This document shows positions 46,501 to 49,500 of a stretch of DNA of 64,000 bases, piece by piece. Positions within the stretch are counted from its first letter, which is position 1. Each line of letters begins with the position of its first letter. Source of the stretch: Escherichia coli. Lineage in GTDB: Bacteria > Pseudomonadota > Gammaproteobacteria > Enterobacterales > Enterobacteriaceae. Made by a program: the position numbers. The DNA lies in NCBI RefSeq assembly GCF_029227855.1, contig NZ_CP074356.1, one strand, 5' to 3'.

Positions 46501-49500
46501 ACGGCCTGTTCTGTCGGCGTGTTCACGGGCGAGGGCGAACATTTGCGGGTTTGCGGTGGAAGCAAAACTACTCAGAAGTACGCCCGTTGAGAGGAGAATG
46601 AAGTAGTTGCGATTCCACGCAAAAAGCGTGCAGGCCAGCACTCCAAATAAGCAACATAGCAGAATCAGTAATTTACGGTCGCCTTGTTTATCGGAGTGCC
46701 TTGCCAGAAATTGACTGACCAGAATTCCCATAATAGCGCTACCGGTGAAGAAAAAACCTACCATTATAGGACGGGCTTTCAGTTCATCTGCGAGGAATAT
46801 ACTTAGGGTAGGAGTCTGAAGAGCGCCCGCAATACCCGTCAGAAAGGCGACAAGTAAAAATGCCGCGGCAGTGAGATCAAGTATTTTTGATGGAGTGGTA
46901 GCCGTTTTTTGCATTCTTCTGAATCACCGGGCGAAAAAATATAACTGAGTTACAAATAAGTACCAGTCGAATGAGTATTGTATTAAGAATTTTTGAGTAT
47001 CGCTGATACAACCAGAAAGCAATGCTAGCGCAATATTATAGGGCCAGCAATTGAGATTATTAGTAAAAGCATGTTAAGAATTAATTACCGAATTTATATA
47101 TTAATTATAGTAAGGCAATGAGCTATTTTTGATAGTAAAAATAAAACAAGTTGATTTGATATATTAAATGAACAAATTAATCTTGATGGCAGTCTGATTA
47201 TTGGTGAAGTTTATAGTCAGTTTTTTTCGCCAGCGGTTAAAGAAATAGAATAGTCGTATAAAAAAGGGTGTTCTGGGGCGAGTAAAACAACATCTTCACC
47301 TTAATGGCGATACAGTTGGCTGAGAGTCAGCAGGGGGGCAAATCACCTGCAAATAAACACGGCGCATACTGGCGTGAATATCGCGGATGCGTTCGAGGAC
47401 AGAAGAACCGACAGGCGGATTCTTCAGCCGCTCATCGTCCATCACAAAACCTTAGACCAGGTATTCCTGAAGCCGATTGAATATTGAGCAGTAGAAAATA
47501 TCTGGATTGACAGTATTACAAGGGGTTGGAGAACGTCAGGAGAGGCATTTTGGCGGAAGATCACAGGAGTCAAAATTGACATATAACAATTTGATTTAAA
47601 TCGTTTATATTTTTCTATTCTAATTCATTTATACACATCCTTATACATATAATATCTATCGATTAATTTTTACACGCATCTTCACGCACGTTAACTCAGG
47701 AAAAAAATTTTTTTTTCGGAAGAACTGTTCACACTGTTCACCTTTCTGTTTTCTCCTTTTATTTCAGTTGGATAGGTGGTGAATAATGGGTGAAGGGTGA
47801 ACATTCGATTCTTCACCTCCGGCATTCTGCCGGTGTGACTCATACCGGTGATTAATCCCCCGTGCTGAAATCACACCGGAAGAAAAAAGTTTTTTTTGAT
47901 TTGATTGTTCACACTGTTCACCTTTCATTTTTCTCTTTTAATTTCAGTGTGATAACGGGTGAATATACGGTGAAGGGTGAACAGTGGATTGTTCACCTTC
48001 GGGGAATTCAGGGATAAAAAAAGACCGGCAGATGCCGGTCACGTGGGTCAGGTTGTTGCAGGGTCGTCACATTTTGGCAGCCAGTCGCCGTAGCTTTCCT
48101 CTTTCAGCGTCAGGTTGGTCTGTATCCCCTGTTTGGTATGGCGCTTCTCGTAATTCAGTCCGTATTCCTTCAGCATCACCGGCAGCCCCAGCCCGAACAT
48201 TTTCAGACTGAGTACATTCCGGTAGCCGTTTGCCTCCATGTAGGCCAGATAGGCGTGATAGAGGTATTTACGGTAATTGCGCGGGATGATACTGGCGTTC
48301 CCCATATACATGCCGCTGGTCTGCGGCAGGGTTTCCAGATAGCCGATAAAATCAAACGTCGGGTCGGCATCCCGTTTGATGTTCAGCGCCTCGTCTGAGT
48401 TCTGCTGGGACTGAAGCAGTGACCGGGCGAGCATCGGGTCGCTGAACTTCTGCATCAGGTGACGCACGATGACCGCCAGCTCGCGGGTGATTTTGTCCTT
48501 AAGTTGCGGGTCGCGCTCCTGCGGGGCTATCTGTTCCGGGAAGTGAATAATCACCCGCCGGCGTGACACGCCGCCGCTGCGGTCGGTGAAGCGCATCGGG
48601 TTATTGTTCACGGCCAGAATCACCGCCGGGATATGCGTGGAGTACGCATCCCGGTATTTCGGGTCAACGGACACTGCATCGCCGCCGGTGATGGCCTTGA
48701 GTCCGGCTCCGTCGCCGCTCCATTTTTCCTGGTCCGGCAGGCGTATCAGTGAGAAGCCAGTTAACGCGGCACGTTCACGCGGGGATTCCAGCGTCTCAAT
48801 GGTGGCCGACGTGGCGTTATCCTCCCCGGCCAGCAGGGTGGCTATTTCGGCCATGATACTTTTGCCGCTGCCGCCGGGACCGGTCACCTCCAGAAAGAGC
48901 TGCCAGTCGTAGCGGTTTGCCAGCACCATAAACAGTGCGGCCAGAATCACGTCGCGTTTTTCCGCACGGCCACCGGCGGCACGGTCAAGCCAGCGCCAGA
49001 ACGCGGGGGCGTGGGTCTCCAGCGTTTCCCCTTCCACCGGCGGGGTGAAATCCACATCGCACAGGGTGCGCATCCAGTGTGACGGACTGTGCGGGTGGAA
49101 CGTGCCGTTCTGCGTGTCGAGCACGCCGTTACGAAAGCCAATCAGGCGGCGGGAGGGGGCTTCCTGCTGCGGAATAATCAGCTTCAGGGTGTCCACCACG
49201 GAGGCCACCTTCCCGGAGGAGAACGGCGCGCGCAGACGCTGAAACAGCCCGGCCACATCCCGGGCAAAGTCCTGTGGCGGCAGCACCTTCCAGACACCAT
49301 TTTCATAGCGGGACAGAAGCTGGCCGTTGGCATCGACCGCGAGCGCCTCGCCGTAATGCTCATAGATACGCATGGCCTTTTCGCTGGTACTCATGGCGGA
49401 AAACTCCGCTTCGCTCATGGTGTCGAACGGGCTTTCAGCCGGTGGCCGGATGGCATCATAAATGGCCTTACGGGTGGCTTCCCCGCCGTACTGCGTGAAG

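What the first reader, a model, noticed from the sequence alone, without database searches (positions are those of the whole stretch)
47690..48010. Tandem about 120-bp direct repeat with TGTTCACC iterons (crr-like)
Two adjacent near-identical about 120-bp units, each containing several copies of the octamer TGTTCACC or its complement, sit just 3' of alpha. The same octamer clusters again at 52700-52830. This is the expected pair of alpha-binding replication elements (crr and ori) and suggests the replication module is intact.
Basis: partly seen in the sequence, partly recalled or inferred. Interest (0 to 1): 0.35.

Follow-up and report, generated by a model that had tools for sequence, protein, structure and literature searches.

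The report
Phage P4 crr replication element
The repeat is the well-known "crr" replication site of a P4-type satellite prophage inserted at the E. coli selC tRNA gene, 96% identical to P4's own, so it is real but ordinary.

Summary
Window 47703-48002 contains two 120-bp direct repeats, each carrying TGTTCACC-type octamers. A second cluster of six octamers lies at 52722-52825. There are 16 exact copies in the window against 1.7 expected. Two details need correcting: the units are separated by a 60-bp spacer, and they are only 79% identical to each other.

The interpretation also holds. Window 47703-55036 aligns with phage P4 (X51522) 4291-11624 at 98.1% identity. [quoted passage not shown] All 10 crr iterons and all 6 ori iterons are identical to P4's in sequence and strand. 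Alpha differs from P4's at 6 of 777 residues, and its origin-binding domain is 100/100 identical to PDB 1KA8. Cnr is identical.

The element (47549-59194) is a P4-like satellite prophage bounded by a 23-bp repeat of the selC 3' end. Its integrase and cargo genes are not P4's.

This is already known, so interest is low.

One side observation may be new. P4's "ori type 2 repeats", which match P2 Cox boxes, are replaced at 52583-52631 by a different 49-bp allele. That allele resembles the Cox operators of non-P2 helper phages.

The parts
47703..48002 (+). crr (cis replication region): two 120-bp units plus a 60-bp spacer
   Evidence: 96.0% identical to P4 X51522 4291-4590, annotated 'crr'. Similarity to P4 begins exactly at 47703.
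47703..47822 (+). crr unit A. Iterons: 47726-47733 (+, TGTTCACA), 47735-47742 (+, TGTTCACC), 47778-47785 (-, TATTCACC), 47796-47803 (-, TGTTCACC), 47810-47817 (+, TCTTCACC)
   Evidence: 95.8% identical to P4 4291-4410. All five annotated iterons are identical to P4's.
47823..47882 (.). 60-bp spacer between the units
   Evidence: 90% identical to P4. Poorly conserved across P4-like loci. Its inverted repeat is strong in only 4 of 48 loci.
47883..48002 (+). crr unit B. Iterons: 47906-47913 (+, TGTTCACA), 47915-47922 (+), 47958-47965 (-, TATTCACC), 47976-47983 (-), 47990-47997 (+)
   Evidence: 99.2% identical to P4 4471-4590. All five iterons are identical to P4's.
48016..48040 (-). t-alpha, rho-independent terminator of the alpha transcript
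   Evidence: 25/25 identical to P4 4604-4628. Terminator-like hairpin at 48040-48023 followed by a T run.
48048..50381 (-). alpha: primase-helicase and origin-binding initiator, 777 aa
   Evidence: 6 amino-acid differences from P4 alpha. Pfam hits Zn_Ribbon_Prim, Toprim_3, D5_N, DUF5906, Pox_D5. Residues 671-770 are identical to PDB 1KA8.
50396..50716 (-). ORF106 (called cnr, the copy-number regulator, from memory of the P4 literature)
   Evidence: 106/106 identical to P4 ORF106.
52722..52825 (-). ori1 iteron cluster: six exact TGTTCACC at 52722, 52732, 52743 (-), 52765 (+), 52808, 52818 (-)
   Evidence: Identical in sequence and strand to P4 9310-9413.
47549..47571 (.). Left attachment-site core: 23-bp direct repeat of the selC 3' end
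   Evidence: TTTGGCGGAAGATCACAGGAGTC is found at 47549 and at 59172.
59172..59268 (-). tRNA-Sec (selC), with the right attachment-site core in its 3' end
   Evidence: ARAGORN, Rfam RF01852, direct repeat.
57821..59011 (-). Tyrosine integrase, 396 aa, not P4's Int
   Evidence: Pfam Arm-DNA-bind_3, Phage_int_M and Phage_integrase. No DNA similarity to P4 int. Less than 50% identical to any phage record.
55037..55055 (+). cos cohesive-end sequence
   Evidence: 19/19 identical to the first 19 nt of P4 (GGCGAGGCGGGGAAAGCAC). Similarity fades after about 27 nt.

Best explanation
This is the crr (cis replication region) of a P4-type satellite prophage integrated at selC. It consists of two 120-bp units, each with five or six short sites of the TGTTCACC type, the 'type 1 iterons'.

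The likely mechanism is as follows. The iterons are binding sites for the C-terminal origin-binding domain of the element's alpha protein, a combined primase, helicase and initiator. The same sites occur six times at ori1, 4.7 kb away on the other side of alpha. When the element is derepressed and alpha is made, alpha binds both clusters. The crr acts in cis, like an enhancer, to allow initiation at ori1, most probably by alpha bridging ori and crr in a DNA loop.

What is shown here: the sequence identity with P4's crr, ori, alpha and ORF106 (Cnr), the conservation of the iterons across P4-like elements, and the intact context.

What is inferred from P4 work: alpha binding, the requirement in cis, and looping. 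These rest on Flensburg and Calendar 1987 and Ziegelin et al. 1993 and 1995, recalled from memory, because those papers were not readable with the tools.
For: - Homology: window 47703-55036 aligns with P4 4291-11624 at 98.1% over 7335 columns. [quoted passage not shown]
- Iterons: all ten crr and all six ori iterons have P4's exact sequence and strand.
- Enrichment: the octamer occurs 16 times against 1.7 expected.
- Initiator: alpha is 771/777 identical to P4's, and its residues 671-770 are 100/100 identical to the solved P4 domain 1KA8. Cnr is identical.
- Family conservation: the unit architecture recurs downstream of alpha in P4-like loci whose alpha is only about 85% identical and whose crr is only about 71% identical. 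Across 90 unique units, iteron columns are better conserved than the others (1.80 against 1.24 bits; Mann-Whitney p = 1.3e-5).
- Module boundary: similarity to P4 starts exactly at the first base of the crr, while the attachment and integrase module next to it is unrelated to P4's. This places the crr with the replication module.
- Literature: recent papers describe the P4 crr as essential for replication of P4 DNA (bioRxiv 10.64898/2026.03.30.715334).
Against: Nothing in the sequence argues against it. The limits are these:
- No binding or replication assay was possible.
- The primary P4 replication papers could not be read with the tools, so the mechanistic steps rest on recalled literature and on the GenBank annotation.
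- The two units are only 79% identical, and some natural P4-like elements carry a single unit. The two-unit form may therefore not be strictly required.
Confidence: 0.95

Rival explanations
1. The iteron cluster outside the origin acts mainly as a negative copy-number control site. It would titrate or 'handcuff' alpha together with Cnr, like incA of plasmid P1, rather than being a positive element needed for initiation.
For: Iterons lie away from the origin, and an intact Cnr gene sits next to alpha. In iteron plasmids, extra iteron arrays often work this way (established knowledge).
Against: The P4 record annotates the region as required in cis for replication. A recent paper calls it essential for replication. 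A control role could exist alongside the positive role but would not replace it.
Confidence: 0.1
2. The repeats belong to the integration machinery, as arm-type binding sites for the integrase or the excision factor, because they lie only 131 bp from the attachment core.
For: They are close to the left attachment core at 47549-47571.
Against: The integrase and the attachment-proximal DNA (47572-47702) are unrelated to P4's, yet the crr is 96% conserved, with the break exactly at 47703. A different repeat, TATACA(C/T)AT in pairs, flanks both attachment sites and is the better candidate for arm sites. P4-like loci with other insertion sites keep the same crr.
Confidence: 0.03
3. The region is an inert relic in a decayed prophage, or a short protein-coding gene. 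Some RefSeq genomes annotate a 'hypothetical protein' over it.
For: ORFs of 50-54 aa overlap it. A few genome records list a hypothetical protein there.
Against: Every P4 gene from alpha to psu is full length without internal stops, cos is intact, and both attachment repeats are present. Conservation follows the iterons and the A/T tracts rather than a reading frame.
Confidence: 0.03

Closest known systems
Bacteriophage P4 crr (X51522 / NC_001609, positions 4291-4590)
   Same: Two 120-bp direct repeats with a 60-bp spacer. Five annotated type 1 iterons per unit, at identical positions and on identical strands. The same place downstream of the alpha terminator. 96% nucleotide identity. The same partner ori1 with six iterons.
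   Different: 12 substitutions in 300 bp, 6 of them in the spacer. The neighbouring attachment and integrase module is for selC rather than P4's own site (leuX, from memory). The 'type 2 repeats' next to ori1 are replaced.
crr of other P4-like satellites (IMG/VR loci L002-L081; 1142 of 5426 complete E. coli genomes)
   Same: The same unit layout: an A-run/T-run, then TGTTCACA-C-TGTTCACC, an AT-rich stretch, then three inverted and one direct iteron.
   Different: Relatives with about 85% identical alpha have crr only about 71% identical. Unit spacing ranges from 157 to 183 bp, and some elements have a single unit.
Iteron-based plasmid replicons with distant iteron clusters (R6K gamma origin with the alpha and beta origins; P1 incA/incC). 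This comparison is from general knowledge.
   Same: Repeated short initiator-binding sites in two separated clusters, thought to communicate by protein-mediated looping.
   Different: The iterons are 8 bp rather than 17-22 bp. The initiator is a primase-helicase with a C-terminal winged-helix domain (1KA8), not a Rep/pi-type protein. Here the second cluster is needed for initiation rather than being only inhibitory.

Membership tests
P4 crr (cis replication region) | Two direct repeats of about 120 bp separated by about 60 bp | tested here: met
   47703-47822 and 47883-48002, spacing 180. Aligned with both P4 units.
P4 crr (cis replication region) | Type 1 iterons (TGTTCACC and one-mismatch variants) in both orientations, five per unit | tested here: met
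   All ten are identical to P4's in sequence and strand.
P4 crr (cis replication region) | Nucleotide homology to the P4 crr | tested here: met
   96.0% over 300 bp.
P4 crr (cis replication region) | Position just downstream of alpha and its terminator, next to the attachment site | tested here: met
   Alpha stop codon at 48048, terminator at 48016-48040, attachment core at 47549-47571.
P4 crr (cis replication region) | A cognate alpha protein with the origin-binding domain, and a partner ori1 with six iterons | tested here: met
   Alpha 771/777 identical, with the 1KA8 domain identical. ori1 iterons identical.
P4 crr (cis replication region) | Bound by alpha and required in cis for replication | not testable with these tools
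   Needs a gel-shift or footprint assay and a replication assay. Inferred from identity to P4.
P4-like satellite prophage | Core gene set (alpha, epsilon, delta, sid, psu, integrase), cos, and the immunity RNA | tested here: met
   All the listed P4 core genes, alpha through psu, are full length at 97-100% amino-acid identity. cos is 19/19. Integrase present. Rfam C4 and isrK hits.
P4-like satellite prophage | Integrated at a tRNA gene and flanked by direct repeats | tested here: met
   23-bp repeat of the selC 3' end at 47549 and 59172.
Phage P4 itself (same element) | P4's left arm: gop, beta, cII, int and attP | tested here: not met
   P4 1-4290 has no match in the window beyond about 27 nt past cos. 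The cargo is Helicase + DUF2290 and the integrase is different.
P2 Cox-box array upstream of P4 PLL (annotated 'ori type 2 repeats' in the P4 record) | Boxes matching TTAAA(G/C)NC(A/C) at 10-11 bp spacing | tested here: not met
   P4 has exact matches at 9180 and 9190, plus a near match. The window has none in 52498-52712. Consensus taken from PMC3936717.

The most novel reading that the evidence does not exclude
The crr itself offers nothing new. The most novel reading the evidence allows concerns the stretch next to ori1, at 52583-52631.

In P4 this stretch holds the three 'ori type 2 repeats', which match the P2 Cox-box consensus and lie upstream of the late promoter PLL. Among 39 otherwise near-identical P4-like elements, the 49-bp patch occurs as three discrete alleles, all with a roughly 10-bp periodicity. 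Each allele resembles the C-cox (Pe-Pc) operator region of a different class of P2-like helper phage:
- P4-type against P2: 26/34 nt.
- Window-type against Salmonella phage SW3: 19/22 nt, and against Escherichia phage ESSI2_ev239: 26/38 nt.
- The third type against an E. coli prophage of the WPhi family: 22/31 nt.

The patch would then be a swappable helper-recognition cassette that decides which helper's Cox protein can wake the satellite. This element would respond to a non-P2 class of helper.
Probability: 0.4. Interest if true: 0.5.

Novelty: already known. Interest (0 to 1): 0.1.

Why it matters
For the finding itself, the value is annotation. It fixes the left end of the replication module of an apparently complete P4-like satellite at selC. 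It also shows that the initiator, both of its binding-site clusters and the copy-number regulator are all essentially P4's. RefSeq annotation leaves the crr unmarked, or occasionally places a hypothetical protein over it.

The side observation would matter more if confirmed. It is published that WPhi Cox neither binds P2-type Cox boxes nor activates P4 (PMC5009727). Allelic Cox-response patches would explain how P4-like satellites pair with helpers other than P2. They would also give a simple sequence marker for satellite-helper specificity.

Tried and rejected
- Tandem Repeats Finder found no 120- or 180-bp array, only the 9-10 bp iteron pairs. The pair was found with the direct-repeat tool instead.
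- The primary P4 replication papers (PMC413647, PMC104256, PMC330539) are not held. Full-text searches for 'cis replication region' and TGTTCACC found nothing. The mechanism therefore rests on the GenBank annotation, two recent papers and recalled literature.
- Spacer inverted repeat (47825-47838 / 47871-47884, 13 of 14 pairs). It is weak in P4 (6 matched arm bases against 13 here on the measure), strong in only 4 of 48 two-unit loci, and the spacer is poorly conserved. Rejected as a functional part.
- Partner site for the 49-bp patch allele. No other variable site between 48048 and 54381 is associated with the allele; normalised mutual information stays at or below 0.31 outside 52500-52750.
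- Patch as a copy of excision-factor sites at the attachment site. Neither the window nor P4 has a cluster of the patch motifs near its attachment site.
- BLAST of the patch against the phage collection found only P4 itself. The similarity to helper operators appeared only with ungapped local matching and shuffle controls.
- Co-residence test in one genome. E. coli 95-3192 carries a P4-type patch together with a WPhi-type Cox prophage, so a simple match to the resident helper does not hold there.
- Locating the patch in the P4-likes with about 85% identical alpha, using a fuzzy anchor, gave only spurious matches.

Full report
**1. The observation**

Window 47703-47822 and 47883-48002 are two 120-nt direct repeats, 180 nt apart start to start. 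Three details differ from the description:
- A 60-bp spacer separates the units.
- The units are 79% identical to each other, not near-identical.
- Tandem Repeats Finder does not call an array of this period.

The octamer TGTTCACC occurs 16 times in the 64-kb window on both strands, against 1.70 +/- 1.37 in dinucleotide-preserving shuffles; no shuffle of 100 reached 16. Five copies lie in the 300-bp repeat region and six lie at 52722-52825. About 0.009 and 0.003 would be expected there. The five remaining copies are scattered. Apart from the octamers and two or three flanking bases, the two clusters share no similarity.

**2. What it is**

A search of the phage collection returns only phage P4. 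[quoted passage not shown]

Against the full P4 record X51522, window 47703-55036 aligns with P4 4291-11624 at 98.1% over 7335 columns, with two single-base indels. Feature by feature:

| Feature | Identity to P4 |
|---|---|
| crr, whole | 96.0% |
| crr unit A | 95.8% |
| crr spacer | 90% |
| crr unit B | 99.2% |
| alpha terminator | 25/25 |

- All ten crr iterons annotated in P4 have exactly P4's sequence and strand here: TGTTCACA, TGTTCACC, TATTCACC, TGTTCACC, then TCTTCACC in unit A or TGTTCACC in unit B.
- All six ori1 iterons are likewise identical.
- Each window unit is closer to its P4 counterpart than to its neighbour, so the duplication predates the split between this element and P4.

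**3. The rest of the replication module**

- Alpha (48048-50381, minus strand) is 777 aa with no internal stop and six substitutions relative to P4.
- It has both CxxC zinc motifs, the EGYATA primase motif and the Walker A motif GPGGSGKS.
- Its Pfam architecture is that of a primase-helicase.
- Residues 671-770 are 100/100 identical to PDB 1KA8, deposited as 'putative P4-specific DNA primase'. From memory, that entry is the origin-binding domain of alpha. DNA-binding specificity should therefore be unchanged.
- ORF106 (Cnr) is 106/106 identical. Epsilon, ORF151, ORF88, sid, delta and psu are full length with at most four substitutions each.
- Rfam finds the immunity RNA (C4 family, 51832-51919) and its companion families.
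- The cos sequence is 19/19 identical to P4's.

At the sequence level the module is intact.

**4. Context**

- The element is bounded by a 23-bp direct repeat, TTTGGCGGAAGATCACAGGAGTC, at 47549-47571 and 59172-59194. The second copy is the 3' end of tRNA-Sec at 59174-59268, minus strand.
- The flanking ORFs correspond in position, strand and size to setC and yicL on one side. On the other side, a 479-aa transporter-like ORF lies where yicJ sits. These names come from a related E. coli genome that carries a P4-like element at the same place.
- P4's left arm (gop, beta, cII, int, attP) is absent.
- In its place are a 396-aa P4-family integrase, less than 50% identical to any phage record, and a UvrD-like helicase with a DUF2290 protein. 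That pair corresponds to the Helicase + DUF2290 system that Rousset et al. 2022 reported from the P4 hotspot as active against T7 (PMC9122126).
- Similarity to P4 begins at the very first base of the crr (47703) and ends about 27 nt past cos. The crr therefore travels with the replication module, not with the integration module.

**5. Conservation in the family**

- Eighty IMG/VR loci encoding alpha relatives fall into a 99-100% identity group and an approximately 85% group.
- Where enough flank is present, nearly all have a crr downstream of alpha. It is 92-98% identical in the first group and about 70-85% in the second.
- The divergent ones keep the layout: an A-run/T-run, TGTTCACA-C-TGTTCACC, an AT-rich stretch, inverted iterons, and a final direct iteron. 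Some carry only one unit.
- Across 90 unique units, iteron columns carry 1.80 bits against 1.24 bits for the rest (Mann-Whitney p = 1.3e-5).
- The opening A/T tract and a sixth, unannotated half-site (GGTGAAGG, 47789-47796 and 47969-47976) are also conserved.
- The 300-bp crr is found in 1142 of 5426 complete E. coli genomes, always on chromosomes. There it is usually unannotated or occasionally covered by a 'hypothetical protein'.

**6. How it works**

The iterons are alpha-binding sites present both at ori1 and at the crr, 4.7 kb apart. Alpha bound at both is thought to bridge them, and the crr is needed in cis for initiation at ori1.
- Shown here: the sites, their identity to P4's, their selective conservation, and the identical binding domain.
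- Taken from the P4 literature: binding, the cis requirement and looping. I recall these from Flensburg and Calendar 1987 and Ziegelin et al. 1993 and 1995. Those papers are not held in the library.

Rivals:
- A purely negative copy-control role.
- A role in integration.
- An inert relic or a small ORF.

Each is contradicted by the annotation, the module boundary and the conservation pattern.

**7. Comparison and novelty**

This is a member of the P4 crr family by every testable criterion. It is not P4 itself, because the left arm differs. It is already known, and interest is low.

**8. A side observation that may be new**

The P4 record's 'origin' feature also lists three 'type 2 repeats' (CCACTTAAAG, TCATTTAAAG, CCACTTAAAG; P4 9176-9205). 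In the window the corresponding 49 bp (52583-52631) are about 60% substituted, while the flanks are 98-99% identical.
- Among 39 elements with 99-100% identical alpha, the patch occurs as three discrete 49-bp alleles (one locus has a 51-bp variant): P4-type in 14, window-type in 16, and a third type in 9. All keep a roughly 10-bp periodicity.
- No other variable site between 48048 and 54381 is associated with the allele.
- P4's repeats contain TTAAAGTCA, TTAAAGCCA and TTAAAGCAA, which fit the P2 Cox-box consensus TTAAA(G/C)NC(A/C).
- Cox boxes lie 10-11 bp apart upstream of P4's late promoter PLL, and P2 Cox activates that promoter through them (PMC3936717).
- The window has no such box in this stretch.
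- It is published that WPhi Cox does not bind these boxes and does not activate P4 (PMC5009727).

I compared the three alleles with the C-cox intergenic regions of seven P2-like phages and four E. coli prophages:

| Allele | Best match | Matched bases | Shuffles reaching the score |
|---|---|---|---|
| P4-type | P2 | 26/34 | 0 of 2000 |
| Window-type | Salmonella phage SW3 | 19/22 | 1 of 2000 |
| Window-type | Escherichia phage ESSI2_ev239 | 26/38 | 1 of 2000 |
| Third type | E. coli AMSCJX04 prophage (WPhi family) | 22/31 | 0 of 300 |

None of 213 background windows of the WPhi genome reached the scores of the first three rows. This suggests that the patch is a helper-Cox response element carried as specificity alleles.

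The caveats are real:
- The matches are short, and 33 allele-region pairs were tried.
- One genome pairs a P4-type patch with a WPhi-type Cox prophage.
- No binding data exist.
- My literature search for prior descriptions was limited.

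Noticed in passing
window 52583-52631: P4's three 'ori type 2 repeats', which fit the P2 Cox-box consensus, are replaced by a different 49-bp sequence, while the flanks are 98-99% identical. Among 39 near-identical P4-likes the patch occurs as three discrete alleles, each resembling the Pe-Pc operator region of a different class of P2-like helper. It may be a helper-specific Cox response element.
   Followed up: partly
window 55077-57828 (minus strand): The variable 'hotspot' between cos and the integrase carries a 698-aa UvrD-like helicase and a 220-aa DUF2290 protein. Both give strong matches to the PADLOC 'Helicase' and 'DUF2290' models. This corresponds to the Helicase + DUF2290 system that Rousset et al. 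2022 reported as active against T7. A related genome has a HEPN-domain gene there instead.
   Followed up: partly
window 47549-47571 and 59172-59194; integrase 57821-59011: The satellite is integrated at selC rather than at P4's own site, using a 396-aa integrase unrelated at the DNA level to P4 int. Similarity to P4 starts exactly at the crr (47703) and ends about 27 nt past cos.
   Followed up: yes
window 47630-47651 and 59043-59063: Paired repeats TATACACAT ... TATACATAT lie inside both attachment sites, in the positions where P4 has its ATGCCCCC arm repeats. They are probably arm-type sites for the selC-type integrase.
   Followed up: no
window 51750-52250: A second hypervariable stretch among near-identical P4-likes, with 115 informative columns in 500 bp. 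It coincides with the immunity RNA region: Rfam C4 at 51832-51919, isrK at 52027-52104 and c4-a1b1 at 52065-52117.
   Followed up: partly
loci L055, L063, L064, L071; E. coli hits H54-H56: Some natural P4-like elements carry only one 120-bp crr unit. Spacing between two units ranges from 157 to 183 bp. One unit may therefore be enough.
   Followed up: partly
window 47789-47796 and 47969-47976: A sixth iteron-like half-site (GGTGAAGG, that is CCTTCACC on the other strand) abuts the fourth iteron in each unit. It is as conserved as the annotated iterons but is not annotated in the P4 record.
   Followed up: partly
window 47825-47838 / 47871-47884: A 14-nt inverted repeat (13 of 14 pairs) lies in the crr spacer. 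It is much weaker in P4 (6 matched arm bases against 13 here on the measure) and strong in only 4 of 48 two-unit loci, so it is probably incidental.
   Followed up: yes
window 47304-47480: A short ORF lies just outside the left attachment site. In a closely related genome the matching stretch is annotated as a rhuM pseudogene fragment, a possible remnant of an earlier island at selC.
   Followed up: no
locus L091 (E. coli 95-3192): In this strain a similar P4-like element lies directly beside the LEE type III secretion island. The LEE genes end about 850 bp from the crr, with an IS3 fragment between them.
   Followed up: no
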